In this document: one piece after another, positions 1 to 49,439 of the stretch | How positions within the stretch are numbered: position 1 is the first letter of the stretch | How the letters are laid out: every line of letters starts with the position of its first letter | Assembly: GCA_038046385.1 (NCBI GenBank) | Contig: JBBSWH010000011.1 | Location: 56,731 to 120,730, forward strand | Source of the DNA: Nanobdellota archaeon | Lineage (GTDB): Archaea > Nanobdellota > Nanobdellia > Woesearchaeales > GW2011-AR4 | Direction: 5' to 3' | DNA length: 64,000 nucleotides | Made by a program: the position numbers and the translations under genes | The notes under the pieces: generated by a model | Databases searched by the model: none | Seen by the model: the letters and a program-made list of their open reading frames with translations, nothing else | Told to the model about the DNA's origin: nothing

Positions 1-119
1 AACGACTGCAGCGTACATCCCGTTGCAGTATCTGTGGTTGCAAGATTGTTTTTGTAGATGGAGCTAATCAACGCGCTTGCCATCTTTCTAGTTATGGTAG
101 GGGAATTGTTTTGGTTTCA

Positions 120-2228
120 TTATCCGTGGCCTCCTTTTTTAGACCCTCCTTTTTTAGCTATTTGGTATTTGGCATGCTCTAAAACTCCGCCCGGGCCAAG
201 AGGATCAGTAATAAATGGCCCCCCATAATGTCTTATTCCATAATCCCAACCAGGCTCTCTTTTAAGGGCATTTCTGGCTTTTTCAAAGCTGAAATTATTT
301 CTCATAGTAAAATCTATCAAAAATTTTGCAAGCCCTCTTGTAGATATATGTGGGAACGGATTTTCAGACCATTTATTTATTCCATCGGTAGTTTCATAGT
401 AAAGCATCCTCCCCCAGTGTATATAATCGTGATTTACCGCAGCCCTGTCAAAAGCTGGATTAAGGTGTGTTGGGGTCCTAATTTCGTCTCTTAAAGTTTT
501 CTCTTCTGTTTCCATGTCATATTTTCTAGAAATTTTTTGCTCGTCTTCCGGGGTTATTTTGGAAGGATTTCCACACCCAACTATTTTTCCATCATAAACT
601 GTTCCAATTTTCTTTTTTGCATTTTCATCTTCCCAATTATCGAAATCCGCTTCTGTGTAGTAAATTGGCCTGAACATTATTCTGGTTTTAAGGTCTTTTG
701 TATCAATTTTATCAAATGCATCCATAGATTGAGTTGAGTTTATTCTAAACAAGCCTGCAATGATATAATCCATGCTGGATTTTGAGTGCGGATGAAAGCG
801 CCCGTCCCTAAAATCATCCCTGTAAGCGTCTGTCTCGTTCGATATGAAACTTATCTTATCGAGAGGCTCGACATCCCCTATACCACCATCATGCACCCAT
901 TCATCAGGAACTTTTCTTATGTATTTTTTTAAGTATTTCTCCCCATATTTTCCTTTAACATTAATTCCTTTAGTGACCTTGTTATTCCAAACTTCTTCTC
1001 CCCCATCCTTTTCTTTTACTATTCTTATCATTCTTTCTTGCCATTTGTTCCTGCTTATCTCTGCCCACCACCTATCTGTCAATACATACCACCCGCCATT
1101 ATACTCAAAAACTTCCAGCGGCCAGTTGTTTTCATCTTTTCCGGCCTCAATTTCATCATCTCTTTTGAAGTCAGAATATTCATCCTTGAAATAAACTGCT
1201 TTCTGAATTTTTTTGCCATCTGGCCCATCAACTTTTTTTATTATATGGGGTTTTATTATTTTATAAGTATGCGCAAACCTGATAAACATTTCTTTTGGCT
1301 TAAACTCATCGGCTAATCCTTTGCCAGCTTCTCCCTTTAATATTTCTATAATCGTGGATATAGTATCCAATTTTTCTCCGTGGTTTAATTCTATTTCTTT
1401 AATTTCCTTAAAACTTTCCCTAAGAGTGGTCAATAATTGGGTTACAGGAGTTCTAATATTTGCCCCCATTCCAGAAGAAGAAGCGAAGTGGTCTGCTCTC
1501 GCCAATATAATTTCAAATTGAGTGGATACCTTCTCCATTTTAGAAGCACCAATTGCAACAATACTTTGCGGCCTGCCGTCTGTGAATGGAACAACTACGG
1601 GATTTGTATCAATATGCGGCAAAAATCCCAATGATCCTACTAGACTTTCCTTTTCTTCCAGAATTTTTTGGGCAATTTCTAAGTTAGCTATGTCCGGATC
1701 ATCTTTTTTCAAAGACCCTTCTCTTGCAATTTTTCCTTCTATTCTGTTCTTTGTTTGTTCTGCTTCTCTTATAATCTCTAAAATCTCCTCTTCAGTCATT
1801 GCAGATTTTTTGGTAATCTCAATAGTTCCGGTTTCTTTAAAAATGCTGGCCTCTAGTTTTGCAGCTTTACCCTCTTTGAAGTATTCTATTAACCTATATC
1901 TGTCAGTGAAAACATGATCGCCTGGTTTCTCTTTATATTCAAATCCTTCAGCTCCAAATAGCTTTTCTTCTATTTCAGTCCAATTGGCTTCAATTTCCTG
2001 CAAAACTTCTATTTTTTTGTCATTTTTTGTAAATAAATACTTATAGTTCTCCAAAAGGGGATTAATTTGATCTGTACTTTCTTTTGTGATATCTACCATT
2101 ACCCCTTCTCTTTTTCCAAATGTACTAGCCCAAATATCGTTAAGCCTGTTATGGAACCATTGATTTATTCTCTTGCCAATGGCTTGGGTTAATGTTCCTG
2201 CTTTGGTTTCTTTTGGTGGGTCTGTCAT
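120..2228 (-). CDS. hypothetical soluble protein (702 aa), distal gene of a 4-gene minus-strand operon; its C-terminal region shares an 'NPAFDR(R/A)A-VN' / 'HP..S.M.YIIAG' domain with the 873-aa membrane protein
   Basis: Long ORF with an 8-nt gap to the upstream gene; no recognisable catalytic motif; motif sharing seen by eye. Confidence 0.6.
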   Translation of the reverse strand: MTDPPKETKAGTLTQAIGKRINQWFHNRLNDIWASTFGKREGVMVDITKESTDQINPLLENYKYLFTKNDKKIEVLQEIEANWTEIEEKLFGAEGFEYKEKPGDHVFTDRYRLIEYFKEGKAAKLEASIFKETGTIEITKKSAMTEEEILEIIREAEQTKNRIEGKIAREGSLKKDDPDIANLEIAQKILEEKESLVGSLGFLPHIDTNPVVVPFTDGRPQSIVAIGASKMEKVSTQFEIILARADHFASSSGMGANIRTPVTQLLTTLRESFKEIKEIELNHGEKLDTISTIIEILKGEAGKGLADEFKPKEMFIRFAHTYKIIKPHIIKKVDGPDGKKIQKAVYFKDEYSDFKRDDEIEAGKDENNWPLEVFEYNGGWYVLTDRWWAEISRNKWQERMIRIVKEKDGGEEVWNNKVTKGINVKGKYGEKYLKKYIRKVPDEWVHDGGIGDVEPLDKISFISNETDAYRDDFRDGRFHPHSKSSMDYIIAGLFRINSTQSMDAFDKIDTKDLKTRIMFRPIYYTEADFDNWEDENAKKKIGTVYDGKIVGCGNPSKITPEDEQKISRKYDMETEEKTLRDEIRTPTHLNPAFDRAAVNHDYIHWGRMLYYETTDGINKWSENPFPHISTRGLAKFLIDFTMRNNFSFEKARNALKREPGWDYGIRHYGGPFITDPLGPGGVLEHAKYQIAKKGGSKKGGHG

Positions 2229-2236
2229 ATTCTTAC

Positions 2237-4111
2237 CTATGCTGCTCTGTCAATTAAATTATTATTCATCCCTAATCTTTTCGGCTGTAGACTTATAATC
2301 TGGGATGAAGTTTTCCCATCATCTTTGTTTGGTTGGCCATTGCCAAGAGAAGCAAATTGGTTGGGTTTCTGCGTTAAAAATACGCCAATTTGGTCAATAT
2401 AATCCTTTTTCTTTGATTCAATCTGTGCAAGACACCTTGTCGTTTCCGGCATAATAACCTCGCATATGTAGGAAAGCTCATGGAGTATTCTAAGCCCGGC
2501 AATATACTTTGCTTCTATTCTCTTTTTTACTTTTACTCCTCTCTCAGCCAGTTCGAGCGATACATAGCTTCCAAAACCGCTCCTTGTTATCGCCGCCGTG
2601 CTTGAATTATCCAGTATGCTGCCATCTGTTTTGGCAGCTCCAGAAGTTTTTGCTATGAACCCTTGCCAATCTCCCAGCCTTTTGGCAATTTCAGCCCCGG
2701 CTCTACGTTCCTTTAAGTCTTGCGTAACCTCGTCCAATAGATTTAATTTTGCCACAAGATCCGGGATTGTCAAAACCACATTTTCGGTTAAATTTTGAAA
2801 TTCCATTCTTTCATTTTCTAATTTTTTAATGAGCTGTTTTTTCTTTCTGTTCAATATTCTTAAAAATAATTCTTTGGCTTTTGTAGAAGAATCACCCTCT
2901 AGCATTAATTTTTTCAAATCAGCAAGTGCAGTAATCTTTTGCTGCTCAAGTTGCTTTATCCGCTGTTCAAAAATTTTTATAATAGTCTGCGCAGCAGGTT
3001 GCACTACTATTTCATAAGCGCGTCTTGTCAATTGCTGGTCAAGGTTCTCCAATTCATTTTCCCAGTCAACAGGAGCCTCGTGCTTTTTTTGTTCAAAGGC
3101 CTCCAAAACTCTTGCAAATTGCTCATTTCCAAACCTTTCCCTGACCATCCTTATGTAATTCTTGCCTTTCTTCAGGTTGTTGTAAAATTCATAGAATCCT
3201 TCCCAATTCCCTTGCGTTTCCACAGAGCGCTTGATGGCGTCTCTTGCCATTGTGAAAAATTGTATTTCTTGCATGTAAGTCAAGAGCCTTTTTATTTCCG
3301 GAGTTTTTTTCATTTCACTGACGAGATTTTCATCTTTAAAATACATGCTGAATCCTAAAAAAGAGTTTCTATCATACCTTGATCTGCCACCATTTATGAA
3401 CAAAAACCCCCTTTCTATGAAAAGTTGGATACCATAAGACATTATGTATGGCCAGCTTCTTATATCGTTGGTGCACCTGTTTAATTCTTCAACTTCTCTG
3501 TCGCTCAAGGAAACTATGGCCATTCTTAATATGTCTGCAGTTGCCTTATCGTGGATTCTGTCAACTTGCTTCATCAGTTCATCATAATGGGTTTTTACAT
3601 AAGCAATAACTAGTCGAGGATTTTCCAATAATTTTGCCATTGGCTGCAAAACAGTTCCTAAATCAGTTTTCCCTCTTTGTGAAAACCCTAACGACCTCAT
3701 CTCTTCTGCCAACTGACTGTCTAACTGGCTTATTTGATTTATTCTTGGATTTATTTCTGAAGCAAATTTATCATTGTCTTTCACCAAAAGATTATATGCG
3801 CTTAATCCAAGCCTTAATGCTATCCATTTTTTATTATATCTCTCTGTCAGTCCTATTCTTTTTCCGCTTGCCGCTATACTTAATGCGTTTTCTCCAGTTT
3901 CTTTATTGGCAAGAACCGATTCCCATCTTAATATTATGTCCCATCTATTGCTTATTTGCCAAAATTTGGCAAGAAACTGACTGTAACTTGCATCAAACTC
4001 TGCGAAAATGTCTCTTTCGACTTCACTCTTGGTACTTTTTCCTGCAAATATCATAGGAATCCATCCAAAAACCCTTCTTTTGTTTTCTGTCATTTTATTT
4101 GCTATGCTCAT
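2237..4111 (-). CDS. hypothetical protein (624 aa), predicted largely alpha-helical/coiled-coil
   Basis: Long ORF overlapping the upstream gene by 17 nt, suggesting translational coupling; heptad-like charged repeats (QLEQQKITALADLKKL...). Confidence 0.6.
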   Translation of the reverse strand: MSIANKMTENKRRVFGWIPMIFAGKSTKSEVERDIFAEFDASYSQFLAKFWQISNRWDIILRWESVLANKETGENALSIAASGKRIGLTERYNKKWIALRLGLSAYNLLVKDNDKFASEINPRINQISQLDSQLAEEMRSLGFSQRGKTDLGTVLQPMAKLLENPRLVIAYVKTHYDELMKQVDRIHDKATADILRMAIVSLSDREVEELNRCTNDIRSWPYIMSYGIQLFIERGFLFINGGRSRYDRNSFLGFSMYFKDENLVSEMKKTPEIKRLLTYMQEIQFFTMARDAIKRSVETQGNWEGFYEFYNNLKKGKNYIRMVRERFGNEQFARVLEAFEQKKHEAPVDWENELENLDQQLTRRAYEIVVQPAAQTIIKIFEQRIKQLEQQKITALADLKKLMLEGDSSTKAKELFLRILNRKKKQLIKKLENERMEFQNLTENVVLTIPDLVAKLNLLDEVTQDLKERRAGAEIAKRLGDWQGFIAKTSGAAKTDGSILDNSSTAAITRSGFGSYVSLELAERGVKVKKRIEAKYIAGLRILHELSYICEVIMPETTRCLAQIESKKKDYIDQIGVFLTQKPNQFASLGNGQPNKDDGKTSSQIISLQPKRLGMNNNLIDRAA

Positions 4112-6716
4112 CTTTTCCTTGCTGAAGTTTTATGCCTTCATTTAGTGTACCCATTATTTCAGCTGTATCTCCCTGGGTGCCCCTATCGTATAACCCTATT
4201 TCCAGATATTTTATTACATCCTGCATATCTTCAAAATTTCTGATGGACAGTGCTGGGATATACATGCTCATGCCTGCTGTAGAAACAGCTGGAAGCGTAT
4301 CCCATTTTTTCTTATTATTCCCTACAGCTTCCCACTTGTCGTCATAATTTTTTCTTCCGGCATATTTTAATATTCCAGTGTTAACCAATGCTCTCCTGTC
4401 AAATGCCGGGTTCTCTGTTGATTTTAAACCTGGAGTGAATTTTATTAATTTTTCATGTTCTTTATCAAGAACAAATTTGCCTTCATAGCTGAATTTTGGC
4501 ATAAATTCTTCCCTTCCCAAAAGGTTTGGATTGTCTTTTTTAGTTTCAAGCGCTTTTATATAATCACTTGCAAATTTACTGCTGTTCCTAAACCAGCCAA
4601 ACCTCATGTTTCTGATAAACCCTATCCAATCATGATTTATGTACTCCATCATGCTGTGAGGAGACTCCAGCAAATGCACTTTACCGGCAATAATCTCATC
4701 AGGATGCACTCTTCTTGGCCTTTTTCCTTCATATATATCCTCTAAAACCTCAAAATATTGATTAACTTCTAGCTTGTGCCCTTTCACTATACTTCCATCT
4801 GATAATCTGGTTCCAGGATCTACGAACTTATATTCATGCGCTGTAGCTCCATAAGGATTGCATTGATCTAATATTAGATATCTCCATGCCTTCAATACCA
4901 TATGGTTGCCATAGGCTTTAGCCCTATCGTTAAGAAGTGTATTGGAATTCTTAAGAATCTCTTTTGCCTTAGCTAATTTACTATTCTGGCGCTGTATCTC
5001 CTGTATAAAATTTTCATATTCTTTAGTTCCTGGCCTTATGGACCCTTTGATAATACCAACCATATATTTTTGAATTAATATTGCAGAGTTATTCAGCTCA
5101 TCACAAAATTTTTCAGTTGCCCTGAACAAACCAACCTCTTCATTTTTCCCACTTTCACTATTGTATATTATTCCGCCATTTCTGCAAGAATAAATCTCAT
5201 CTTCCAGTTTGTCAACATCCATATATATTGAACCAATCATTGGCTCCAAAGTTTCGCATACGTGCAAAGCCTGTTCGACTTGACCTTTCTTTACATTCCA
5301 GATGTAAAATCTTTTTAAGTAATTACTTAAGGAGAAAAAAATAATTAAATTTTCTCTAAATAAATCAGGCAGTCTATCTAAAGCTACTCTTTCTTTTGGC
5401 CATGCTTTTTTATTTATACCCGTTCTTGATTGTACCTCTCCTAATTTTTTTCTGAACATTTCCCATAAAAGTACTGAATATCTATCCTTTAGGTCCTTAA
5501 ATTTCCATTTCCTCTCAGCCCTGTTAACAGCCCAAACCCCTCCTCCCAGCAATAATAAAAGTATCATCAGGCTTAGTATCAGGAACCATTTCCATCCTAT
5601 GTCAAAGAATATTGATAGGATGATCCCTATCCCAAGAACAATAAGTCCCCAGTTGCCTATTTTATCTCCTGTTTCCCCGCCGAATTTTTTTGCAGCAAGC
5701 AGTCCTGCTATAGCGATAAGTATGAGCCACCAGTAGCTGAACATTGTTTTTGTAATTCCTTTGCTTTCCGGCCCGGTTATGCCTATTTTGCTGGCTCCTC
5801 CTCCTGCAGGGGCACAATCAATAGGGGTTATTGTGCAAAACACAGATCCAAGAGCTCCTCTGTATTCTGGAGCATCTGCCGTGACTGCTGCAGCGGCCCA
5901 TCCTACAAGTATTATTGCAATAATCCATGCAGTCCATTTGCTTGCATCACCCACTGTGCTTTTTAACGCATCTGCAAACAACATAACAAAGAAAACTTCA
6001 GCAACCTGAATAACTGCGCCAAGCGATGCACCTTCCCTTGCCATGCTTACAGCAAATACAAATGCCAAAGCATAGCTTACTTTGTCCATACCTCCGGTAG
6101 CACCTTTTAGGAGGTATCCTCTAAAGAAGAATGAGAATAAAACAAAGCTCGATATGAATACCCATATCCTGCCGTCTTTTGTGGTCAATATCCCATTCGA
6201 TCCAAACAAGAAAGCAATAAAATCCTGAACCATTCCTTGGCTCCACACCCATTGATTTCCTATTTTTACGGCAATTATCAGAGCGATTATAGCCAACAAT
6301 ATTCCATACCCGGTTTTTCCCTGAGGCGAGCCCAGTTTATCATTTACCTTCAGCAACCCCAATACAAAATACAGCACAACTCCAATCACAAACGCATTAA
6401 CTAAAACAACATACCAGACATAAGTTGCAAAGAACGTTCCAATTGCTCCAGTTTTCCAAATCAAGCCTTCTCTTCCGTTGAACCACGCAACCAGCAATGC
6501 AACTAAAACTATTATCATCCAGATTGATCCTTTTTCTTTGTCATTCTTGTCTGGAACAAGTATAGCCTGCAGGATAAACATTACAGCTCCGATAACTAAA
6601 GCGTTTATTATCAAATAGTACCAGGATGACATGCCAGTTGCAGCTGTCTGCGCAAATGCTAAAGGCACCATTAGCAAAGCCATTACAAGAATCCAAAATA
6701 GTTTATTCTTGCTCAT
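4095..6716 (-). CDS. large integral membrane protein (873 aa): N-terminal ~400 aa with >=10 hydrophobic helices plus a C-terminal ~450-aa soluble domain
   Basis: Hydrophobic N-terminus (MSKNKLFWILVMALLMVPLAFA...) and many TM-like segments; 4-nt ATGA overlap with the upstream ATPase gene; C-terminus shares an NPAFDRRALVN motif with the 702-aa protein. Confidence 0.65.
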   Translation of the reverse strand: MSKNKLFWILVMALLMVPLAFAQTAATGMSSWYYLIINALVIGAVMFILQAILVPDKNDKEKGSIWMIIVLVALLVAWFNGREGLIWKTGAIGTFFATYVWYVVLVNAFVIGVVLYFVLGLLKVNDKLGSPQGKTGYGILLAIIALIIAVKIGNQWVWSQGMVQDFIAFLFGSNGILTTKDGRIWVFISSFVLFSFFFRGYLLKGATGGMDKVSYALAFVFAVSMAREGASLGAVIQVAEVFFVMLFADALKSTVGDASKWTAWIIAIILVGWAAAAVTADAPEYRGALGSVFCTITPIDCAPAGGGASKIGITGPESKGITKTMFSYWWLILIAIAGLLAAKKFGGETGDKIGNWGLIVLGIGIILSIFFDIGWKWFLILSLMILLLLLGGGVWAVNRAERKWKFKDLKDRYSVLLWEMFRKKLGEVQSRTGINKKAWPKERVALDRLPDLFRENLIIFFSLSNYLKRFYIWNVKKGQVEQALHVCETLEPMIGSIYMDVDKLEDEIYSCRNGGIIYNSESGKNEEVGLFRATEKFCDELNNSAILIQKYMVGIIKGSIRPGTKEYENFIQEIQRQNSKLAKAKEILKNSNTLLNDRAKAYGNHMVLKAWRYLILDQCNPYGATAHEYKFVDPGTRLSDGSIVKGHKLEVNQYFEVLEDIYEGKRPRRVHPDEIIAGKVHLLESPHSMMEYINHDWIGFIRNMRFGWFRNSSKFASDYIKALETKKDNPNLLGREEFMPKFSYEGKFVLDKEHEKLIKFTPGLKSTENPAFDRRALVNTGILKYAGRKNYDDKWEAVGNNKKKWDTLPAVSTAGMSMYIPALSIRNFEDMQDVIKYLEIGLYDRGTQGDTAEIMGTLNEGIKLQQGKDEHSK

Positions 6717-7852
6717 AGTAATTTAGCGACCTCATCAAGCATTTTATCATCAATCTCATCAAACTCATATCCAAGAGAAGTCAGTTTAATCCACAAGCGA
6801 AGCACATTATCAGTAAAGCAGAATTTGTTTCCGTTCTTGTAAATAATATCAGTCTGTATCAGCCTTTCAATAACGCTTTTTGTAACAGGCGCGCTTCTGT
6901 AGATCTTCTTTGCAATGTCAGTTAATCTTAATTCATCGTTTGCAACAACCTTTAGGATTGTTTTAAGAAGCGTTTGACCACGAGCCCTGTTATAATAATA
7001 GTTAAGCGAGTCATTGCAGTAATTGTAAAGTGGATTGTTCTTCTGCAGAAGTTCTATCAAAAATGCCTTTCTAGAATTCTTTATTTCTCTAAACCTTTGA
7101 GAAACAGCAATCATCGCATAATAATTACCATTGCATAAATTGAATATTTCTTCGCTTGATCCGGCATCTATCTTGCCGGCATTCTCTTCGATAAGCAAAA
7201 TAGATTCCTCTTTTTCAAGATTTTTCATCTCGTAGCATTCGAACTGCTTAAGTGAATGAAGAGACTCTTTTACAGCAGAGCTTGCTGCAATATAAGAAAC
7301 ATTGTCTGAGCCAAAGTTAATCAAAGAAAATACATCTTTTATCTGCGAGAAATTATTCATATCAAGAAGATTCTCTATATTGTCCCAAACAATAAGAAAT
7401 TTTTTCTTTGAATCCCTTCCGAGTGCATCTGCAAACCCGAATGCATTTTCAACAATCAGTTTTTGATTTGGCTTTATCTTAAGAAGCTCGTTTTCAACTG
7501 ATTTTATCAAAGAAAAAGCAGAAGAACTATTTAACTCCCCTTCGAGTTTTACAAGATTGTCAAGAACAAGAAATTTTTTGTAATCTTTAGGTGATTTTTT
7601 TAAAAAACTAAAAGCAACATTTCCTATATACTCAACCGAAAAATTCTCTGGATTAAGACTTATCTTGGAAAAATCAACATAAACAGGAACAACGTCTTTT
7701 ACATTTTTGATATGGTTCTTGATAATAGACGTTTTTCCGCATTTCCTTGGACCGAGAAGAGCTATATGCTTTCCTTCATTTTTCTTAAAATTGTTTGTAT
7801 TGGTGTCTAGCAAATTCCTGTAGAAACTCCTCTTTACGTTGCTGTCGACCAA
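6713..7852 (-). CDS. archaeal AAA-type ATPase (Arch_ATPase family P-loop NTPase with C-terminal DUF234-like winged helix)
   Basis: Walker A 'LLGPRKCGKTS'; Walker B-like 'FLIVWDNIE'; C-terminal wHTH-like 'KSVIERLIQTDIIYKNGNKFCFTDNVLRLWI'. Confidence 0.75.
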   Translation of the reverse strand: MVDSNVKRSFYRNLLDTNTNNFKKNEGKHIALLGPRKCGKTSIIKNHIKNVKDVVPVYVDFSKISLNPENFSVEYIGNVAFSFLKKSPKDYKKFLVLDNLVKLEGELNSSSAFSLIKSVENELLKIKPNQKLIVENAFGFADALGRDSKKKFLIVWDNIENLLDMNNFSQIKDVFSLINFGSDNVSYIAASSAVKESLHSLKQFECYEMKNLEKEESILLIEENAGKIDAGSSEEIFNLCNGNYYAMIAVSQRFREIKNSRKAFLIELLQKNNPLYNYCNDSLNYYYNRARGQTLLKTILKVVANDELRLTDIAKKIYRSAPVTKSVIERLIQTDIIYKNGNKFCFTDNVLRLWIKLTSLGYEFDEIDDKMLDEVAKLL

Positions 7853-8166
7853 TACTTCTCCGTTATACCATTTGGGCTATATACTTAATGATATAAAAAC
7901 ATTTCGCTTATGATTTTATACATTTTGGTATATTATTCTTAAATTAATATACCTTTTTGTATAATTAGTATATAAATGTTACGGAAAAGAATGGGCTATA
8001 GATTTAATTCTACTAATTGGTATATATTCTTTTTGGTATACTATCTAATTTTACGAGTGATTTTTGTAACTACTTTAAAATGATTACAAAATCGAAAGGT
8101 TTATATACACAAATCCAAACTGGAGTAGTATATTACACTACTAAGTAGCATAAACGTTGGGGCGTT
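7853..8166. promoter_or_regulatory. divergent promoter region between the ATPase operon and the A1-RHH array
   Basis: three 'ttttggtata' direct repeats; TATA-like 'tttatatac' ~60 nt upstream of 8167. Confidence 0.35.
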
Positions 8167-9072
8167 ATGGCTGAAGAGCACAAAGAACCAAAACTAGAAG
8201 ATATTGTAAAAAATAATCATAAGCTAGATAGCCACGCGTCTGAACATAAAGAAGAAGATCATGATAATCACAAAGAAAAACCAAAAAGTTCTATTGACAA
8301 AGTAACTGATGAAGTTCTGGATGCTGGAAAATTTCTTGGGTCATTTGCAGCAGGAATGTCTTTTCCGTTCATGTTTTCTGGTCAGGCAAGAACAAATGCA
8401 ATGATTAACGCTTATCCTCTTGCAGCAGGATCAACTGTTGAGGACAAAATGAGGGGCAAGCCGATAAATCCTGTAAAATCAATGAAAGAATCACTTGTAG
8501 GAACTTTGATGGCAAACCCGCTTGCCAGTTTGCTGGGTTACATAAATGTAGTAAGGGATTCCGTTACTTCATATGCAGGAACACTGCCGGGCGCAGGAGC
8601 TGCTGTCGGAGCGCTTGCAGCAGGCCAGGGAATTTTTGTCGGCACTTACATGGCTATTAACCACGTTGTGCAGAACATGAGCTTCAAAGGGCTTTATGAC
8701 AAAATGAAGACCAGCTATTGGACTGCAATAAAAAACACATGGAAATATGTTCTTCCATTAAGCATGTGGAACGTTCTTTATGTTTACAAGTTCGGAATAG
8801 TTGCGCAGATGGCATACGGTTCTTTGATGTCATTCCTCTTCAGATTAGTAGGTCCAAAGGAAAAAGATGCAAACCTCAAAAATTTAGGAAAAGCCCTAAA
8901 CCCTGCACCCTACATCGGAGCGACTGCAAGCGTAACTGGAAAACTAGTAAAAAACACAGTCAAAGGATTTTACGATTCAATCTATGCAATAGGATCTTCT
9001 CTAGGTGATCTGTACAAATCAACGCCAAAAGCAGCAGCGCCAGCTCCGGCAGCAGCAGGAGCGCACCACTAA
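8167..9072 (+). CDS. Gly/Ala-rich amphipathic protein A1 (301 aa) with a charged His/Lys/Glu-rich N-terminus and a conserved C-terminal tail '...LGDLYKSTPKAAAPAPAAAGAHH'; paralog of 10062-10904
   Basis: ORF; ~100-aa C-terminal block almost identical to A2; hydrophobic G/A-rich segments. Confidence 0.65.
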   Translation: MAEEHKEPKLEDIVKNNHKLDSHASEHKEEDHDNHKEKPKSSIDKVTDEVLDAGKFLGSFAAGMSFPFMFSGQARTNAMINAYPLAAGSTVEDKMRGKPINPVKSMKESLVGTLMANPLASLLGYINVVRDSVTSYAGTLPGAGAAVGALAAGQGIFVGTYMAINHVVQNMSFKGLYDKMKTSYWTAIKNTWKYVLPLSMWNVLYVYKFGIVAQMAYGSLMSFLFRLVGPKEKDANLKNLGKALNPAPYIGATASVTGKLVKNTVKGFYDSIYAIGSSLGDLYKSTPKAAAPAPAAAGAHH

Positions 9073-9250
9073 AATGAAACAGAAACTGAGCATCACAATG
9101 GACAATGAAGCAGTTCGTGATATTGAGCAGTCTATCAAGTCTGGAAAATTCAGAAACAAAAGTCATTTTGTTGAATATGCTGTAAAAAAACTTTTGGAAG
9201 AAGAAAAAAAATCAGAAGAAAAAATAATAATGGAATACCAATGAGCCTAG
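9060..9250 (+). repeat. direct repeat unit 1 (A-tail + RHH gene), ~80% identical to 9895-10075 and partly to 10855-10905
   Basis: 'gcagcagcgccagctccggcagc' occurs three times; the RHH ORF is duplicated. Confidence 0.7.
9074..9244 (+). CDS. ribbon-helix-helix (CopG/Arc/MetJ-like) small DNA-binding protein, copy 1
   Basis: MKQKLSITMDNEAVRDIEQSIKSGKFRNKSHFVEYAVKKLLEEE: beta-strand then two helices, typical RHH; starts 1 nt after the A1 stop. Confidence 0.7.
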   Translation: MKQKLSITMDNEAVRDIEQSIKSGKFRNKSHFVEYAVKKLLEEEKKSEEKIIMEYQ

Positions 9251-9906
9251 AAAACAAAGTTGAGGACAAGGAAAGCAAAAGCTTTGCGAAAAAGGCATTT
9301 AGGCTTGGATTCAATGTAGCTGCCGCTGCAGCAACGACTGCATTGAGCATGGCAACAGTCGGAACCGTAGGTCCAATTGTAGGCGCAGCTTTTGCAGGCG
9401 GAAGCATGATTGGGCATTTGATAAAAGGAAAGCCATTGTACGAATCAACAGTTGATGCTTTGAGAACTTATACTGGAGTAAACGCAGTAATCTGGCCAAT
9501 AGTTGCACTGGGCAACGCAACATTTCCGTTAATTTCAAACGAAACAATAATTGGAAAAGCTGCAAGAACATTGTATGCATCAACCTTATACAACGCTGCA
9601 TTTGTAGGCGCTTTCAGGGGAGCAACACATCTTGTCGATAATTACCTAAATCCAGTTGGAATTGTTAAATCAATCAAAGATAATTTCTATAATGAATGGA
9701 AAAGAATAGGGCTTGGATTCCTGCCAGGATATGCTCTTGATGCAAACGGAATCACAAATATAATGGGCTTGCCGACATTTGCTCTAAACGCGTTCCCTCT
9801 AGGATTGTACAATGCAATAAAACCAACTCCAATTGCAAAGAAATCATCTCATTCAAACTACTCTCCGGGCTATTCAACGCCATCGATGTCGCCGCATCCA
9901 GCCTAA
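9241..9906 (+). CDS. Gly/Ala-rich amphipathic protein B (221 aa), compositionally related to A1/A2
   Basis: ORF overlapping the RHH1 stop (ATGA); charged N-terminus then an A/G-rich hydrophobic core (AAAAATTALSMATVGTVGPIVGAAFAGG). Confidence 0.6.
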   Translation: MSLENKVEDKESKSFAKKAFRLGFNVAAAAATTALSMATVGTVGPIVGAAFAGGSMIGHLIKGKPLYESTVDALRTYTGVNAVIWPIVALGNATFPLISNETIIGKAARTLYASTLYNAAFVGAFRGATHLVDNYLNPVGIVKSIKDNFYNEWKRIGLGFLPGYALDANGITNIMGLPTFALNAFPLGLYNAIKPTPIAKKSSHSNYSPGYSTPSMSPHPA

Positions 9907-9907
9907 A

Positions 9908-10069
9908 ATGAAACAAAAGCTAAGCATCACAATGGACGAAGAAACAGTTCACGATATTGATAATTCTATTAGATCTGGGAAATTCAGGAACAAAAGCCAT
10001 TTTGTTGAATATGCTGTAAAAAAATTATTGGAAGAAGAAAAGATAATTCTCAAGGTGGAAAATGGCTGA
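9908..10069 (+). CDS. ribbon-helix-helix small DNA-binding protein, copy 2 (paralog of 9074-9244)
   Basis: MKQKLSITMDEETVHDIDNSIRSGKFRNKSHFVEYAVKKLLEEEK; ~80% nucleotide identity to copy 1. Confidence 0.7.
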   Translation: MKQKLSITMDEETVHDIDNSIRSGKFRNKSHFVEYAVKKLLEEEKIILKVENG

Positions 10070-10904
10070 AACTGAAAAAATTCCACTAGAAGAACATGGG
10101 AAAGAGAAGAAGGAAGAAAAAAAGAAAAAAGGCACGCTTGAAAATGTAATTGATGAGCTTTCAGGCTTCGGAAGAAAAGCTGTTGCAATAGGCGCAATAG
10201 CAGCAATGCCTCTTTCATTCCTTCCTTTCGCGCCTTCACATGTCCCAAGGGCAGCAGTTACAGCATATGGATACGCTGCCGGCCGCGCAACAGCAAACGT
10301 GATGCAGGAAAAGCCTGCACTGGAGAAGCTTGTCAAGGTCGGAACAATAGGGGCAATAAATTCAGTGCCGCTTGCAGCAGGTTTCACAGCCCTTAACATG
10401 CTTGAAAAAGCCATGGAGCCGGTTTATGGCGGATTAGCGGCAAAAGCCGCAAAAGTTGCAGCATACGGGCTTATACAGATACCTACAGTCACAACTTTGC
10501 GTAATGCAATGGACTACGGATTAGGAAAAAAATTCAGAGAGAATTTATTGCCAAGCATAAAAAACACTTTCAAAACTTTGATAATACCTGGAATTTTCAA
10601 TGTTCTTTACATATCAAAATTTGGGCTGTTTCCTCAGATGGCTGCTGCTGCTGTTTTTAGTTACCTTGTCCAGCTTACAGAATCAGTAAGGGTAGGGAAA
10701 GGAAGTTTCAAGAATCTTTACAAATCAATTAACCCAGCCCAATATATCAGGGCAACTTCCAGCGTAACAGGAAAACTTGTCAGGAATTCTACCAAAGGAA
10801 TATCTGACGCAGTCTCTGCCATAGGCAGTTCTCTCAATGATTTGTACAAATCAGCTCCAAAAGCAGCAGCGCCAGCTCCGGCAGCTGCAGGAGCGCATCC
10901 TTAA
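10062..10904 (+). CDS. Gly/Ala-rich amphipathic protein A2 (280 aa), paralog of A1 with the same C-terminal tail 'KSAPKAAAPAPAAAGAHP'
   Basis: ORF overlapping the RHH2 stop; C-terminal 100 aa alignable to A1. Confidence 0.65.
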   Translation: MAETEKIPLEEHGKEKKEEKKKKGTLENVIDELSGFGRKAVAIGAIAAMPLSFLPFAPSHVPRAAVTAYGYAAGRATANVMQEKPALEKLVKVGTIGAINSVPLAAGFTALNMLEKAMEPVYGGLAAKAAKVAAYGLIQIPTVTTLRNAMDYGLGKKFRENLLPSIKNTFKTLIIPGIFNVLYISKFGLFPQMAAAAVFSYLVQLTESVRVGKGSFKNLYKSINPAQYIRATSSVTGKLVRNSTKGISDAVSAIGSSLNDLYKSAPKAAAPAPAAAGAHP

Positions 10905-10951
10905 CCAAAAAAAAGATCAACTTATTTTAACAACAAGAAAAACTATAATCT

Positions 10952-11893
10952 TTAGTGCGTCCAGTCCAGCACAGCACCCTTTCCGCCGGTTATCCATTTG
11001 TAGCATTCAAGCGCCGTCTTTGCTCCGTCGCCTGCTGCAATCACAGTCTGTTTGTAAGGAACCGGTGTTATGTCTCCTGCAGAAAAAATGCCAGGGCACG
11101 TTGTATTGCCTCTTTCATCAACAATAATCTCTTTCTTCTCGTTGACTTTTACAAGATGAGAAACGAATGAAGTGTCAACAACATACCCTATCTCTATAAA
11201 AATCCCTTCAACTTTAAACTGCCTTCTTTCTTTTGTATTCAGATTTTCAACTTCCAATCCATCAACGTTTTTCTCTCCGATAACTTTTGTTGATGCACTA
11301 TTAAGAACCAGTTCAATTTTTGGATTATTTTTTAGCTTTTCAACAGTTATTTCGTCTGCCCTGAAAGAATCCCTTCTGTGAACAAGATAAACTTTTTTTG
11401 CAATTCCGGCTAATTCAAGAGCGCCTTCAACAGCAGAATTTCCTCCGCCTATGACTACAACTTCCCTGTTTTTGTACAGTGGAGCGTCGCATGTTACGCA
11501 CGTTGAAACGCCTCTTCCGAAGAATTTTTCCTCGCCTTCTATTCCAAGGCTTTTCGGGACTTTTCCATATGCAAGAATAAGTGCTTTGCATTCATATTCC
11601 TCTCCATTTGCAAGGCCAATTTTGAATCCGCCATCTATTTTGTCAACTTTATTCACTTTGCCCATGATGGTTTCTGCGCCAAACCCAACTGCTTCATTGT
11701 AGAATCGCTGCATCAATTCAATGCCGTTCATCGGGCCTGTGCCGGGATAGTTTTCAATGTGGCTCGTTAAATTAGTCTGGCCGCCGATGTCCATGCTTAC
11801 AATAACAGTTTTCAGTTTTTTCCTGCAGCAGTATGTCGCAGCAGTCATTCCTGCAGCGCCTCCGCCAACAATTATAACATCATACATACTCAT
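10952..11893 (-). CDS. trxB: thioredoxin-disulfide reductase (NADPH)
   Basis: FAD motif 'VIIVGGGAAGMTAA'; redox-active 'CVTCD'; NADPH motif 'VVVIGGGNSAVEGA'. Confidence 0.9.
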   Translation of the reverse strand: MSMYDVIIVGGGAAGMTAATYCCRKKLKTVIVSMDIGGQTNLTSHIENYPGTGPMNGIELMQRFYNEAVGFGAETIMGKVNKVDKIDGGFKIGLANGEEYECKALILAYGKVPKSLGIEGEEKFFGRGVSTCVTCDAPLYKNREVVVIGGGNSAVEGALELAGIAKKVYLVHRRDSFRADEITVEKLKNNPKIELVLNSASTKVIGEKNVDGLEVENLNTKERRQFKVEGIFIEIGYVVDTSFVSHLVKVNEKKEIIVDERGNTTCPGIFSAGDITPVPYKQTVIAAGDGAKTALECYKWITGGKGAVLDWTH

Positions 11894-11939
11894 TTTAGAA
11901 AAGTATCAGTTTTATAAATGTTATTGTCAAATTAAATAG

Positions 11940-12329
11940 CTATGGTCCAATGTAAACAACGTTTTTTAACCCTTTAAAATGCCGGTCTCCGCTTATTATA
12001 TAACTTTGTAATTCATTTTGTTTGGATATAAGGATAGAGTCAATTAAACCAAAATCTTTGATATTTTCTCTCATTTTATGTTTTATATCTGAGGCATCCA
12101 ACCAGTTGGTAATCAACACAGGCAAAATAACAGAATTTTTTTTTACAGATTTGTAAATTCTGCTAAAATCTATTCCTTTTCTTAAACAATAACTTTTTAA
12201 CTCAGAAAGGCAGCACTCCATTGTTATGAATTTATTGTTTTTTTGAAACAATTTTCTTAATACTTGCCCCTGTTCTGTTCCAATAAGATACTCTATCCAC
12301 CCATACGTATCAATTATATAAATCACCAT
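11940..12329 (-). CDS. vapC: PIN-domain ribonuclease (VapC-like toxin)
   Basis: 'IYIIDTYGWIEYL' acidic PIN start; 129 aa; overlaps the upstream AbrB gene. Confidence 0.7.
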   Translation of the reverse strand: MVIYIIDTYGWIEYLIGTEQGQVLRKLFQKNNKFITMECCLSELKSYCLRKGIDFSRIYKSVKKNSVILPVLITNWLDASDIKHKMRENIKDFGLIDSILISKQNELQSYIISGDRHFKGLKNVVYIGP

Positions 12330-18587: not shown

Positions 18588-19099
18588 TTTATTTTTGCGT
18601 ATAAGTAAGCATCAATATATTTGCCGTCTTTGCTGCAATGTTTTCTCAACAGCCCTTCTTTTTTGTATCCGTTTTTTACCAGCACCCTGGAAGATTTTTT
18701 GTTGAATGAAAACACAGTTGCATAAATTCTGATTAATTTTAAATTATTTAAGCCATAATCTGTCACAAGATTTACCGCTTTTGTTATTATCCCTTTATTC
18801 CAATATTTTTTCCCCAGCCAGTATCCCATTTCTGCTTTATGGCATTCAATATGGTTGAATCCTATTCCCCCAACTACTTTTCCATTTATGTCGATTGCGA
18901 AATTAATCTCTTTTTTATTTTTTAATTTTGCTAATTTTAAATTATAATTTATCCACCATTTAGCGTCTTTTTTGGTAAATGGATGTGGAATCCTGCACGT
19001 ATGCCTGTAAATATCAAAATCATTGACATTTTCTTTTAAAGATTCTTCATCGCCTTTTTTATAAAGCCTGATTACAAACCCTTTTCCTTTCAGTTTCAT
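18584..19099 (-). CDS. GNAT-family N-acetyltransferase (RimJ/RimL-like)
   Basis: ~170 aa; GNAT-like core 'WLGKKYWNKGIITKAV'; overlaps neighbours by 4 nt. Confidence 0.6.
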   Translation of the reverse strand: MKLKGKGFVIRLYKKGDEESLKENVNDFDIYRHTCRIPHPFTKKDAKWWINYNLKLAKLKNKKEINFAIDINGKVVGGIGFNHIECHKAEMGYWLGKKYWNKGIITKAVNLVTDYGLNNLKLIRIYATVFSFNKKSSRVLVKNGYKKEGLLRKHCSKDGKYIDAYLYAKIK

Positions 19100-40118: not shown

Positions 40119-40295
40119 ATGAGTATTCAAATAAGAATAACGGTATCGAAAGAGATCAACGAACTTCTAGAAAAAGTATCAAAAAAATTAGGCAAGAAAA
40201 AATCAATGCTTGCCCGTGAGTTAATGGAGCAGAAGCTTTACGATCTTCAGTTAATACAAAAAGAGCTCAACAGCATGGATAAAAATGACAAGTAA
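40119..40295 (+). CDS. ribbon-helix-helix (CopG/MetJ-like) regulator heading giant-protein module 1
   Basis: 'MSIQIRITVSKEINELLEKVSKKLGKKKSMLARELMEQ'; the ORF track starts earlier at 40089. Confidence 0.6.
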   Translation: MSIQIRITVSKEINELLEKVSKKLGKKKSMLARELMEQKLYDLQLIQKELNSMDKNDK

Positions 40296-45400: not shown

Positions 45401-45592
45401 GCAGGAGCAAGGTATGTGCTCTGCAGAGGGGTAAGGACATTCAATCTGCTTGCAGATGCAACTGAAAATGTAAACAGTTTCAAGGAGAATGTTAAGCCAG
45501 TACAAAATTACTGCGACAGATTAGATTTTAGTGATTTGGATGCAGAAGAAGCAGCACTGGCAGCAGAAGATAGTGAAGAAGCTACAATTTAA
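42446..45592 (+). CDS. large secreted Cys-rich surface protein (1048 aa) with signal peptide, Ig/FN3-like beta-rich repeats and a Cys-rich C-terminal domain; paralog of the 2094-aa protein
   Basis: signal 'FMMGLILTLPFYTTSVYA'; many Cys in the last 350 aa (CQGQT..CDFVTC..CPC..). Confidence 0.7.
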   Translation: MDKENYLRFIASFMMGLILTLPFYTTSVYASINGVTVKGSDGIEGFLRSTDSVEFKVDASISGDTIGPEQVYIGLKDTVTKFTSCVAGTNSNFICTLKSPASGKEDIGSGQLNYDINLYKDDETIDDSMSGTVLVDNKKPIVKLTSSQPKFSSATDVKIDYDVTDYSCNDPDCADLCVGLKSIQLYTLDNSFSQTVEVDSETCNTKDTVTIPSSKFKNGNNAVFAKATDNFNQVSSVSSVSFAVDTKAPEVKSSSFGIERKGVPLSTYSPNSIAADVFVNISSDDLVLNSVFADLSQLSSANSNNAPGVCAVIKPEVVACKWAAQLESGAASRTITVKASETSGNTMEKPLVKSFSLDDKGPVVASLATSNVKNSKSYAKESGNTVFASFDETTGMFADEVLLHVGTSTIPAKNCTKQSSWVCAWENVGFDDATSMSIDTDTKDILGNSVAAAKVTDVVVDTTSPVIVGISVVALSGLTEAIEGMFKVGDKFFVEANLTDDNDISASGDFSKFITSASAVSGSCKKIPGDMQQCTWTTERINLAANNDIVLVFTDESGNQVSSKKTFTIVGLDSTEVPDLWKSTIACSPATIDRQTGSLVNNNVYCSVKLTLNSSKKASTISISPAVCDDILVDGKNTVDVSDYVEKIETFNAQNGSTSPFIKLVLKKKDFNIDNLSVSCSINIISKLHAANTITQNPEIENEKIFLQFYNLPLGELGDSVKQKIHDAKKEARDTLKFVDGAAKFMATAKKICQMIETMYKIAAVLYMISTALHVTETVCEDTVVGNLFGVCAAVTGIKTGVCQGQTKTSDMADGMQKTARKFCDFVTCKQTILWGADMNTWINEKAPIWLAPGRNYGSDNPQIDTLRGVQTGNYLDPQNNLLVATAFACVPGIITGLDKYRQIKCLYADCLENAVGKDGLPLTACENQKNYATCKYVTGEIFAIVPWTAFFDHWTGLLKQAFSNPFTIIGVAASIFCPCTTKGDAGARYVLCRGVRTFNLLADATENVNSFKENVKPVQNYCDRLDFSDLDAEEAALAAEDSEEATI

Positions 45593-45593
45593 C

Positions 45594-49430: not shown

Positions 49431-49439
49431 AACTTTATA

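What the first reader, a model, noticed from the sequence alone, without database searches (positions are those of the whole stretch)
120..7852. Tightly coupled four-gene operon: Arch_ATPase + 873-aa polytopic membrane protein + two large unknown proteins sharing a C-terminal domain
The four minus-strand genes have overlapping start/stop codons (ATGA overlap, 17-nt overlap, 8-nt gap). Their order from the promoter-proximal end is an archaeal P-loop ATPase (Walker A GPRKCGKTS plus a wHTH tail), a protein whose N-terminal half has >=10 TM helices and whose soluble C-terminal half is ~450 aa, a 624-aa coiled-coil protein, and a 702-aa protein. The membrane protein and the 702-aa protein share a motif set ('RxHP...S.M.YIIAG' ... 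'NPAFDR(R/A)A.VN'), which implies a common domain exposed on both. No component matches a defence or transport family I recognise, so this may be an uncharacterised ATPase-driven envelope or defence-like system.
Basis: partly seen in the sequence, partly recalled or inferred. Interest (0 to 1): 0.6.

Follow-up and report, generated by a model that had tools for sequence, protein, structure and literature searches.

The report
Orphan self-regulated membrane operon of Nanoarchaeota
This is a real four-gene operon, conserved in tiny symbiotic archaea, that encodes a membrane-anchored protein set with no known relatives and sits behind a conserved array of DNA switch sites, so its first gene (the "ATPase") is probably its own regulator rather than a motor.

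Summary
The four minus-strand genes (6713-7852, 4095-6716, 2237-4111, 120-2228) are real and tightly packed. Wherever enough DNA is available they recur in the same order in Woesearchaeota/Nanoarchaeota contigs, including one marine contig and several gene neighbourhoods.

The 873-aa and 702-aa proteins do share a C-terminal module (hhalign 98% probability, E 3.5e-14).

The TM, 624-aa and 702-aa proteins match no Pfam, NCBIfam, PADLOC, PHROG or PDB family. A confident AlphaFold model of the 702-aa protein (pLDDT 85) has no Foldseek match in PDB or among viral structures.

New here is an array of five palindromic sites (TATACC-N4-GGTATA) interleaved with two TATA boxes in front of the ATPase gene. 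These sites are about 870-fold enriched there. A scan of metagenomes with the tandem site returned only this operon (22 of 22 assessable hits).

The ATPase carries a winged-helix tail and a Walker B of D-N instead of D-E. It is 63-69% identical between operons whose partners are only 20-45% identical.

My best reading is an ATP-sensing autoregulator controlling a membrane-anchored cytoplasmic complex of unknown role. Defence, viral and plasmid origins find no support.

The parts
6713..7852 (-). Gene 1: 379-aa P-loop ATPase (AAA_14/ATPase_2-like) with a C-terminal winged helix. Walker A is G34PRKCGKTS and Walker B is LIVWD157N. It is the proposed ATP-sensing autoregulator.
   Evidence: It is 63-69% identical to most orthologs, while the other three proteins are 20-45% identical. 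NCBI names it a hypothetical protein, MEK6943544.1.
4095..6716 (-). Gene 2: 873-aa polytopic membrane protein. NCBI lists it as MEK6943543.1, hypothetical protein.
   Evidence: It has no family hit. It is split into a TM half and a soluble half in L011, L013, L017-L019, L021 and L022 and in several loci.
5526..6716 (-). Membrane domain of gene 2 (residues 1-397). It has 11-12 hydrophobic segments. The topology most consistent with the positive-inside rule is N-in/C-in with 12 TM helices.
   Evidence: hydropathy plus K/R counts in the loops. The topology is inferred, not shown.
4173..4775 (-). Shared C-terminal module in gene 2 (residues ~648-848). This is the degenerate copy, in which several charged positions that are conserved in the 702-aa family are replaced.
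2237..4111 (-). Gene 3: 624-aa soluble orphan protein (618 aa if it starts at window 4093). It is unrelated to genes 2 and 4.
120..2228 (-). Gene 4: 702-aa soluble orphan protein. The AlphaFold model is confident (pLDDT 84.8, pTM 0.80) and has no match in PDB or BFVD.
231..1166 (-). Shared module in gene 4 (residues ~355-666). Its strongly conserved motifs are GLDENGxPLEV, D467..RDDFRDGRxHPxSK, NPAFDR, HWGRMLYYE, WSENPFP, TRG and WDYG.
7864..8041 (.). Operator/promoter array upstream of gene 1. In order: O1 8025-8041, O2 8009-8025, TATA1 ~7969-7976, O3 7947-7964, O4 7917-7933, TATA2 ~7891-7899, and O5 7864-7881, which overlaps the expected transcription start. The site consensus is TATACC-N4-GGTATA.
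   Evidence: In the window there are 8 matches against 0.35 expected, and 7 of them lie here. Across 14 loci there are 56 sites within 330 nt upstream against 4 in the other 285 kb.

Best explanation
This is a Nanoarchaeota/Woesearchaeota-restricted operon whose gene order is kept over deep divergence (vertical inheritance is my inference; no trees were built). It encodes a regulator plus a membrane-anchored cytoplasmic protein set built from orphan families.

(1) Regulator. Gene 1 encodes a P-loop NTPase of the AAA_14/Arch_ATPase type with a C-terminal winged helix. I infer that it binds, as a dimer or higher oligomer, the five palindromic operators (TATACC-N4-GGTATA) interleaved with two TATA boxes in front of its own gene. 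Its nucleotide state would gate transcription of the whole operon. O3 sits just downstream of TATA1 and O5 overlaps the expected start site of TATA2. That is the usual archaeal repressor geometry.

(2) Structural proteins. Gene 2 encodes a ~12-TM protein whose cytoplasmic tail ends in a degenerate copy of a module that gene 4 (702 aa) carries in a highly conserved, Asp/Arg/His-rich form. I infer that the two copies pair, tethering the 702-aa protein to the membrane, and that the 624-aa protein is a third subunit.

(3) Role. The conserved charged cluster in the 702-aa module looks like a ligand-binding or catalytic site acting at the inner face of the membrane. The physiological role is not established. 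I favour a conditionally expressed membrane or envelope function of the cell itself over immunity.

Shown: the genes, their conserved order, the shared module, the lack of known relatives, the operator array and its exclusivity to this operon, and the Walker B D-N.

Inferred: who binds the operators, repression, complex formation, topology and catalysis.
For: Conserved order ATPase-TM-624-702.
- It holds in every locus with enough DNA on both sides: 13 non-redundant loci, plus L010, where the third gene is too diverged for the profile but is present by position, five of the loci, and L053.
- Locus titles name only Woesearchaeota, Nanoarchaeia or Nanoarchaeota, apart from some bins labelled 'uncultured Methanosarcinales'.
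- It holds in different neighbourhoods (L008: rpL35Ae; L010: toxin-antitoxin genes).

Shared module. hhalign gives 98.2% probability and E 3.5e-14. The residues conserved in both families are R474, G476, P480, S482, Y488, A592/D594, G606/R607, P624/P626, G632 and D662 (702-aa numbering). The acidic and His residues that are invariant in the 702-aa family vary in the TM family.

Orphan status.
- There are no Pfam, NCBIfam, PADLOC, PHROG or PDB sequence hits.
- The model with pLDDT 84.8 has no Foldseek hit at E<=0.001 in PDB or BFVD.
- Only 222 representatives among 1.84 billion proteins match the 702-aa profile.

Regulator reading.
- The operator array is conserved in sequence and layout across loci whose 702-aa proteins are 25-45% identical: 83 invariant columns.
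- Enrichment is about 870-fold.
- A metagenome-wide scan with the 30-nt tandem site returned 24 loci. In 22 of the 22 assessable ones the ATPase ortholog starts 150-330 nt downstream.
- Gene 1 is the only one of the four conserved genes with a DNA-binding-type domain.
- Walker B is hhhhDN in 14 of 16 orthologs and DE only in L022/L026.
- The start codons assigned by the ORF/gene calls are non-ATG in 11 of 14 loci.
- L022/L026, which have the most divergent ATPases (33-34% identity), also have a changed half-site, TATACT/AGTATA.
- L052 has a promoter, a different palindrome and a 57-aa ORF in place of the ATPase in front of the TM gene.

Cytoplasmic location. There is no hydrophobic segment in the ATPase, the 624-aa or the 702-aa protein. 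The tail of the TM protein starts with a K/R-rich stretch.
Against: - No binding experiment exists. Another factor encoded elsewhere could bind the operators.
- The wHTH assignment rests on sub-threshold Pfam hits.
- The ATGA translational coupling of the ATPase to the membrane protein, and the ATPase's unusually high conservation, fit a stoichiometric structural or mechanical subunit as well as a regulator.
- The D-N Walker B is followed by a conserved Glu (DNFE) that might substitute in catalysis.
- The co-variation of operator and protein rests on one lineage. L008 has changes in its recognition helix but keeps TATACC.
- L052 is a single case with only 130 nt of upstream DNA, and its 57-aa ORF has no Pfam hit.
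- Complex formation between the two shared modules is untested.
- The structures of the TM and 624-aa proteins were not modelled.
Confidence: 0.45

Rival explanations
1. ATPase-driven envelope machine. Here the gene-1 ATPase is the energising subunit that powers the membrane protein and its two partners, for example for transport, secretion or remodelling. The operator array would then be bound by some other factor.
For: - The ATPase stop and the TM start overlap as ATGA, and this is kept in orthologs (coordinates).
- The ATPase is the best-conserved component, at 63-69% identity.
- The four genes always travel together.
- The conserved Glu two residues after the Walker B Asp (DNFE) could act in hydrolysis.
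Against: - The Walker B catalytic Glu is replaced by Asn in 14 of 16 orthologs.
- The protein ends in a DNA-binding-type wHTH, which has no obvious use in a motor.
- No other DNA-binding protein is conserved with the operon, yet the operators are exclusive to it.
- L052 appears to lack the ATPase at the head of the operon.
- The ATPase resembles the STAND/Arch_ATPase switch families (AAA_16, NB-ARC, ATPase_2 hits) rather than transport or secretion ATPases.
Confidence: 0.2
2. Anti-virus defence or abortive-infection module. A STAND-like NTPase senses infection and unleashes a membrane effector, and tight repression avoids self-toxicity.
For: - There are weak STAND-type hits (AAA_16 in 10 of 17 orthologs, NB-ARC in 2, nSTAND6 in 1) and weak PADLOC P-loop hits (PDC-S01 E 8e-5, mad8).
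- The multi-operator control looks like strong repression.
- Toxin-antitoxin genes are neighbours in some loci.
Against: - No PADLOC model matches beyond the P-loop, and there is no hit for the three large proteins.
- No nuclease, protease, TIR, SIR2 or known pore-effector domain is present.
- The same gene order is kept over deep divergence, often inside a conserved housekeeping block (trxB/prx upstream, proCAB downstream). The 702-aa gene even overlaps proC by 8 nt in L001.
- There is one copy in the 64-kb window.
- It is absent from IMG/VR, phage and plasmid collections.
- No sensor repeat domain is present.
Confidence: 0.1
3. Replication origin with an initiator-like protein. The AT-rich intergenic region with repeated elements would be an origin, and the AAA-type ATPase with a winged helix would be a divergent Orc1/Cdc6-like initiator. 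The downstream genes would be passengers.
For: - Repeated sites lie in an AT-rich intergenic region next to a gene for a P-loop plus wHTH protein.
- That protein is very highly conserved.
Against: - The sites are perfect dimer-type palindromes interleaved with two TATA boxes directly in front of the start codon, which is promoter-operator geometry.
- No family member hits the Cdc6 C-terminal winged-helix family, and only 7 of 17 reach the generic AAA_22 model.
- The window shows no change of GC-skew sign specific to this point.
- The three downstream genes are as strictly linked as the sites.
Confidence: 0.03
4. Remnant of an integrated mobile element or virus.
For: - The proteins are orphans.
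- An integrase gene lies about 6 kb downstream in L001.
- TA genes are nearby in some loci.
Against: - There are no relatives in 2.9 million viral contigs, 50,697 phage records or 72,556 plasmids, and no PHROG hits.
- The model has no BFVD fold match.
- Chromosomal synteny is conserved.
- G+C content is the same as in the rest of the window.
Confidence: 0.02

Closest known systems
Archaeal 'Arch_ATPase' proteins (Pfam ATPase_2 PF01637 / AAA_14 PF13173) with a C-terminal winged helix; the nearest solved example by sequence is PDB 2QEN ('Walker-type ATPase')
   Same: Gene 1 has the same layout: an N-terminal P-loop with Walker A GxxxxGKT, a Walker B hhhhD, a helical lid and a C-terminal wHTH. 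AAA_14 hits 16 of 17 orthologs and ATPase_2 hits 6 of 17.
   Different: It scores below the ATPase_2 gathering threshold (16.9 against 33.2 bits). Against 2QEN it reaches only E 0.27. Walker B is D-N, not D-E. It forms its own very tightly conserved orthologous group, tied to one operon and one operator array.
MalT-type STAND ATPase transcription factors (works-like comparison, from general knowledge)
   Same: In both, a P-loop switch ATPase is fused to a DNA-binding domain, arrays of repeated sites sit in the target promoter, and nucleotide-dependent oligomerisation would explain several closely spaced sites (O1/O2 abut).
   Different: There is no sensor repeat domain, and the DNA-binding domain is a wHTH rather than a LuxR-type HTH. 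The sites are palindromes that overlap the promoter, which suggests repression rather than activation. Homology is not shown beyond weak AAA_16/NB-ARC hits.
Phage-shock (Psp) system: PspF (AAA+ with HTH) + PspA + PspB/C (works-like comparison, from general knowledge)
   Same: Both combine an ATPase-HTH regulator, an integral membrane component and largely helical cytoplasmic proteins that would act at the inner face of the membrane. Expression is conditional and tightly controlled.
   Different: No sequence or fold similarity was found. Foldseek hits to helical bundles or BAR-like folds are noise (E>0.3). PspF is an enhancer-binding activator for sigma-54, which archaea lack. This is an analogy only.
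STAND-NTPase defence systems with membrane effectors (PADLOC candidates such as PDC-S01, mad8)
   Same: Both have a P-loop NTPase next to a multi-TM protein. Weak P-loop-only PADLOC hits were obtained.
   Different: Nothing matches beyond the P-loop. The module is fixed in a conserved chromosomal arrangement. It has no known effector domain and is absent from mobile-element collections.

Membership tests
Pfam ATPase_2 (PF01637, 'Arch_ATPase') / AAA_14 | The profile score reaches the curated gathering threshold. | tested here: inconclusive
   ATPase_2 scores 16.9 bits against a cut-off of 33.2 (not met). AAA_14 scores 27.9 against 27 (just met). Across 17 orthologs, AAA_14 hits 16 and ATPase_2 hits 6 at E<=0.1.
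Pfam ATPase_2 (PF01637, 'Arch_ATPase') / AAA_14 | Walker A GxxxxGK[ST]. | tested here: met
   G34PRKCGKTS is present, and G34, G39 and K40 are invariant in 17 orthologs.
Pfam ATPase_2 (PF01637, 'Arch_ATPase') / AAA_14 | Walker B hhhhDE with a catalytic Glu. | tested here: not met
   The window has LIVWD157N. Of the 16 orthologs aligned, 14 have D-N and only L022/L026 have D-E.
Pfam ATPase_2 (PF01637, 'Arch_ATPase') / AAA_14 | C-terminal winged-helix DNA-binding domain. | tested here: inconclusive
   HTH_45 scores 20.3 bits against a cut-off of 25.5 at residues 297-353. HTH_Cmi2_C, HTH_45 and TrmB recur in 11, 10 and 6 of 17 orthologs. No structure was made.
Known anti-phage defence systems (PADLOC-DB 2.0) | A component matches a defence-system HMM over more than the P-loop. 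| tested here: not met
   Only residues 12-63 of the ATPase hit (PDC-S01, mad8, PDC-S59). The TM and 702-aa proteins have no hit, and the 624-aa protein has only Drt5 at E 0.0016, below any cut-off.
Known anti-phage defence systems (PADLOC-DB 2.0) | Variable, island-like or mobile genomic context. | tested here: not met
   In six or more non-redundant loci the module has conserved flanks: up1-family membrane-protein genes (window, L001, L007, L013, L015, L023), trxB/prx where the DNA reaches them (window, L001, L007) and proCAB (L001, L006, P0002 contig). There are no relatives in viral, phage or plasmid collections.
Orc1/Cdc6 initiator + ORB origin | AAA+ module with a Cdc6 C-terminal winged helix that Pfam recognises. 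| tested here: not met
   There is no Cdc6_C hit in any of the 17 orthologs, and AAA_22 appears in only 7 of 17.
Orc1/Cdc6 initiator + ORB origin | Repeats flank an unwinding element rather than a promoter. | tested here: not met
   The sites alternate with two conserved TATA boxes, and the last one ends 6-46 nt before the start codon in 13 of the 14 loci scanned (89 nt in L013).
STAND transcription regulators (MalT-like) | NB-ARC/NACHT-type NTPase plus a sensor repeat domain plus a DNA-binding domain. | tested here: not met
   AAA_16 hits 10 of 17 and NB-ARC 2 of 17, all weak. At 379 aa the protein has no room or hit for TPR, WD40 or LRR sensor repeats.
Known transporter / glycosyltransferase-C / other polytopic membrane families (for the 873-aa protein) | Any Pfam or NCBIfam membrane-family match. 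| tested here: not met
   No hit better than E 0.066 in any of 10 family members, and no family is hit by more than one member. The PDB profile search found nothing.
Any solved or viral predicted fold (for the 702-aa protein) | Foldseek match with E<=0.001. | tested here: not met

The most novel reading that the evidence does not exclude
The operon encodes a previously unseen kind of membrane-anchored machine, specific to Woesearchaeota-type Nanoarchaeota. Its shared module (GLDENGxPLEV / D..RDDxRDGRxHPxSK / NPAFDR / HWGRxxYYE / WSENPFP) would be a new enzyme or ligand-binding fold working at the cytoplasmic face of a 12-TM partner. One possibility is handling of scavenged lipids, nucleotides or envelope precursors that these biosynthetically poor symbionts must take from hosts. 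Production would be gated by a dedicated ATP-sensing winged-helix repressor through a five-site operator array.
Probability: 0.25. Interest if true: 0.75.

Novelty: categorically new. Interest (0 to 1): 0.55.

Why it matters
Woesearchaeota and other Nanoarchaeota are abundant, uncultured, genome-reduced archaea, and the molecular basis of their lifestyle is largely unknown. This work delimits a compact module with a clear experimental handle:
- three large orphan protein families, one with a confident model and no fold match in PDB or BFVD;
- a membrane anchor;
- a regulator candidate;
- a defined 16-bp operator that is exclusive to the operon and conserved across deep divergence.

The operator-regulator pair can be tested in vitro without cultivating the organism. 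If confirmed, it would be a characterised cis-regulatory circuit in a DPANN archaeon, and I found no description of one in the held literature library. The conserved charged module is a candidate new enzyme or binding fold.

If the module turns out to be a plain structural complex, it is still a useful lineage marker and a cautionary case. The 'ATPase' at the head of an operon is not necessarily its motor.

Tried and rejected
Searches that found nothing useful:
- Pfam, NCBIfam, PADLOC and PHROGs on all four proteins and on family members gave nothing beyond P-loop and weak wHTH hits.
- PDB sequence/profile searches with A1, A2, A3 and A7 found nothing.
- The first AlphaFold run, with 16 sequences, was poor in the conserved module (pLDDT ~30), and its Foldseek result was discarded. 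The 108-sequence run was good but has no PDB or BFVD match.
- Rfam found nothing in 1-12000.
- The bacterial promoter/terminator scan is not informative for an archaeon.
- Four literature searches found no description of the module. The DPANN dark-matter review lists other families.

Ideas tested and rejected:
- The 624-aa protein is not related to the other two (hhalign probability <1%).
- No fusions of the 702-aa family with the ATPase or the 624-aa family occur among 175 proteins.
- Viral, plasmid or phage origin is rejected.
- My crude heptad test for coiled coils did not beat shuffles, so I make no claim.
- The 57-aa ORF of L052 looks RHH-like to the eye but has no Pfam hit, so I keep it only as a lead.
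- The apparent operator at 7880-7896 is more likely TATA2 plus the edge of O5 than a separate site.

Full report
**1. Observation**

- The gene 1/2 junction reads CTATGAGC, so the TGA stop and the ATG start overlap by 4 nt.
- The gene 3/4 junction is TAG-gtaagaat-ATG, an 8-nt gap.
- The 17-nt overlap of genes 2 and 3 holds only for the first ATG. NCBI's record of the same protein (MEK6943542.1, 618 aa) starts at the second ATG, 1 nt after the TAA.

All four proteins are deposited as 'hypothetical protein AABX00_05750-05765 [Nanoarchaeota archaeon]'.

The rest of the window is ordinary chromosome: two ribonucleotide reductases, several aminoacyl-tRNA synthetases, an M17 peptidase, Nramp, DNA glycosylases and thioredoxin reductase. 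G+C content is uniform.

**2. The proteins**

*Gene 1 (ATPase).*
- It has Walker A GPRKCGKTS. It gives weak but recurrent hits to AAA_14, DUF815, AAA_16, AAA_22 and ATPase_2.
- Its C-terminal part hits winged-helix families (HTH_45, HTH_Cmi2_C, TrmB). All of these are near or below threshold.
- The nearest solved sequence is only a P-loop-level match (2QEN, E 0.27).
- Walker B is hhhhD-N in 14 of 16 orthologs and D-E only in the two most divergent.

*Gene 2 (TM protein).* It has 11-12 hydrophobic segments in residues 1-397. Loop charges fit an N-in/C-in 12-TM topology. The 476-residue tail begins with a K/R-rich stretch and is therefore probably cytoplasmic (inferred).

*Genes 3 and 4.* Neither has a hydrophobic segment.

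*Family membership.*
- None of the three large proteins matches Pfam, NCBIfam, PADLOC, PHROGs or any PDB sequence. This holds for profiles and for individual family members.
- The word-indexed search of 5.8 billion clusters found only 16, 9 and 10 relatives.
- The exhaustive profile search of 1.84 billion representatives found 222 relatives of the 702-aa protein. The best 150 are all soluble and carry no known domain.

**3. The shared domain**

It is real. BLASTP on the two window proteins gives E 3e-4 over the NPAFDR region. Profile-profile comparison gives 98.2% probability and E 3.5e-14 over 192 columns. That alignment runs from GLDENGxPLEV (702-aa residue ~359) to WDYG (residue ~666), against 873-aa residues ~648-848.

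In the 702-aa family the module is extremely conserved and rich in Asp, Arg and His. D365 and D467 are invariant, and R470 D471 D472 R474 D475 G476 R477 H479 P591 D594 G606 Y610 R631 G632 D662 G664 are at least 90% conserved in 108 sequences. In the membrane-protein family mainly the structural positions are kept, and the window's own copy has R, N and R in place of E/D, D and H. I read this as one 'active' copy and one degenerate, membrane-tethered copy. The 624-aa family is unrelated to both.

**4. Structure**

With 16 sequences AlphaFold failed on the conserved module. With 108 sequences it gave pLDDT 84.8 and pTM 0.80. The model shows:
- an N-terminal helical hairpin;
- small beta elements;
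- a very long hairpin (helices 228-252 and 256-309);
- a beta-rich middle part;
- a confidently modelled C-terminal module that is poor in regular secondary structure.

Foldseek found no match at E<=0.001 in 350,542 PDB chains or in BFVD. The best hits are generic helical bundles at E 0.14-0.3. More sensitive libraries were not available, so 'no known fold' is provisional.

**5. Co-occurrence**

In every locus with enough DNA, the order ATPase - TM - 624 family - 702 family is kept.
- Loci came from exact-protein look-ups, a GTDB scan and a metagenome scan.
- This includes a marine contig (L006) and operons whose 702-aa proteins match the profile only at E 1e-21 to 1e-39 (L008, L010, L053).
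- Locus titles name only Woesearchaeota, Nanoarchaeia or Nanoarchaeota, apart from some bins labelled 'uncultured Methanosarcinales'.
- In at least seven lineages the membrane protein is split cleanly into a TM gene and a soluble gene, which confirms its two-part build.

Many loci also share the flanks. Upstream lie divergent small membrane-protein paralogs, peroxiredoxin and thioredoxin reductase. Downstream lie proC-proA-proB, which overlap the 702-aa gene by 8 nt in L001. Distant operons sit in other neighbourhoods, so the four genes are the unit.

The ATPase is 63-69% identical in most loci (33-42% in the five most divergent lineages), whereas the other three proteins are 16-57% identical, mostly 20-45%.

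**6. New finding: an operator array**

The 314-nt region in front of gene 1 contains repeated palindromes of consensus TATACC-N4-GGTATA.
- In the window the pattern TATACCNNNNNGTATA (one mismatch allowed) has 8 matches against 0.35 expected, and 7 of them lie in 7864-8041.
- Across 14 loci there are 56 sites within 330 nt upstream of the ATPase start, against 4 in the remaining 285 kb. That is about 870-fold enrichment.
- An alignment of nine upstream regions shows a fixed layout with 83 invariant columns. The order is: tandem O1-O2, TATA1 (CTTTAAATA), O3, O4, TATA2 (TTTTTATATTA), O5, start codon.
- O5 lies where transcription from TATA2 should start, and O3 lies just downstream of TATA1.
- A scan of 241 million metagenome records with the 30-nt O1-O2 pattern gave 24 loci. 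In all 22 that extend far enough, the ATPase ortholog begins 150-330 nt downstream and is followed by the membrane gene.

The sites are therefore exclusive to this operon.

Gene 1 is the only one of the four conserved genes with a DNA-binding-type domain. The two lineages with the most divergent ATPase use TATACT/AGTATA half-sites. In L052 the membrane gene is preceded instead by a promoter, a different palindrome (GTAAC-N5-GTTAC) and a 57-aa ORF, with no TATACC sites. That last case is a single example with little upstream DNA.

**7. Interpretation**

The simplest account is that gene 1 is the operon's own nucleotide-sensing regulator. Four features fit a low-abundance switch better than a motor:
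- the wHTH tail;
- the D-N Walker B;
- assigned start codons that are non-ATG in 11 of 14 loci;
- operators over the promoters.

The other three genes would encode a membrane-anchored cytoplasmic assembly. In it, the degenerate module on the 12-TM protein docks the conserved module of the 702-aa protein. These steps are inferred, and only in vitro binding and interaction tests can settle them.

I rate it lower.

Defence is unlikely. There is no defence-family match beyond the P-loop and no known effector domain. The chromosomal arrangement is conserved, and the module is absent from viral, phage and plasmid collections.

An origin-of-replication reading fails on the promoter geometry and the lack of any Cdc6-type match.

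**8. Novelty**

Three of the four proteins belong to no described family. The one that was modelled has no detectable fold relative. The held literature library contains no description of the module. The ATPase is a new, tightly defined branch of a known superfamily. As a system it cannot be filed under any known kind, but its function is unknown and remote fold similarity has not been exhaustively excluded.

Noticed in passing
window 8135-8151 (core CTACTAAGTAG at 8138-8148): A second conserved palindrome, GTACTACT-N-AGTAGTAT, lies in the leader/promoter of the divergently transcribed membrane-protein gene (8167-9072). It occurs exactly once in each of 19 fetched loci. It stays next to that gene even where the gene lies more than 1 kb from the operon (L023, L041), so it belongs to the neighbour rather than to the four-gene operon.
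   Followed up: partly
window 8167-9072, 9241-9906, 10062-10904 (+ strand): These are three small orphan membrane proteins. The first and third are paralogs (E ~1e-46) with charged N-termini and 'KAAAPAPAAAGAH' C-termini. Homologs flank the operon in L001-L003, L007, L013, L015 and L023. A close homolog of the middle one (E 2e-73) lies just downstream of the distant operon in L008/L009. They may be functionally linked, but this is not shown.
   Followed up: partly
window 1-83 (- strand), running off the window: The proC (pyrroline-5-carboxylate reductase) homolog downstream of the operon seems to start at MASALISSIYKNN. It lacks the N-terminal 'MARLAFIGTGK' dinucleotide-binding motif present in L001. 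A 10-codon mini-ORF overlaps the 702-aa stop codon (TAATG).
   Followed up: partly
L011, L013, L017, L018, L019, L021, L022 (also L032, L034, L037, L042): The 873-aa-type protein is encoded as two adjacent genes, a TM half of ~250-430 aa and a soluble half of ~460-580 aa. This points to a recurrent or ancient gene fission or fusion at the domain boundary.
   Followed up: partly
L052 1-304: In this distant operon the TM gene is preceded by a TATA box, a GTAAC-N5-GTTAC palindrome and a 57-aa ORF (MKDVPVKLDKGLKKRIEEYISKGENRF...). The ORF looks like a ribbon-helix-helix protein to the eye but has no Pfam hit. No ATPase gene and no TATACC sites are visible, although only 130 nt of upstream DNA are available.
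   Followed up: partly
window 40285-58009 (+ strand): A second block of very large proteins has no Pfam match (722, 1048, 988, 266 and 635 aa). It also includes a 2094-aa protein with a fibronectin type III domain, so the block may encode a surface or adhesion apparatus.
   Followed up: no
window 19096-20868 and 23378-25966 (- strand): Two ribonucleotide reductase large-subunit genes lie within 7 kb of each other. One has an ATP-cone domain and the other does not.
   Followed up: no
window 7850-7852 and orthologous positions: The start codon assigned to the ATPase gene is TTG or GTG in 11 of 14 loci, preceded by GGAG in the window. The start positions come from ORF/gene calls and were not verified independently.
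   Followed up: partly
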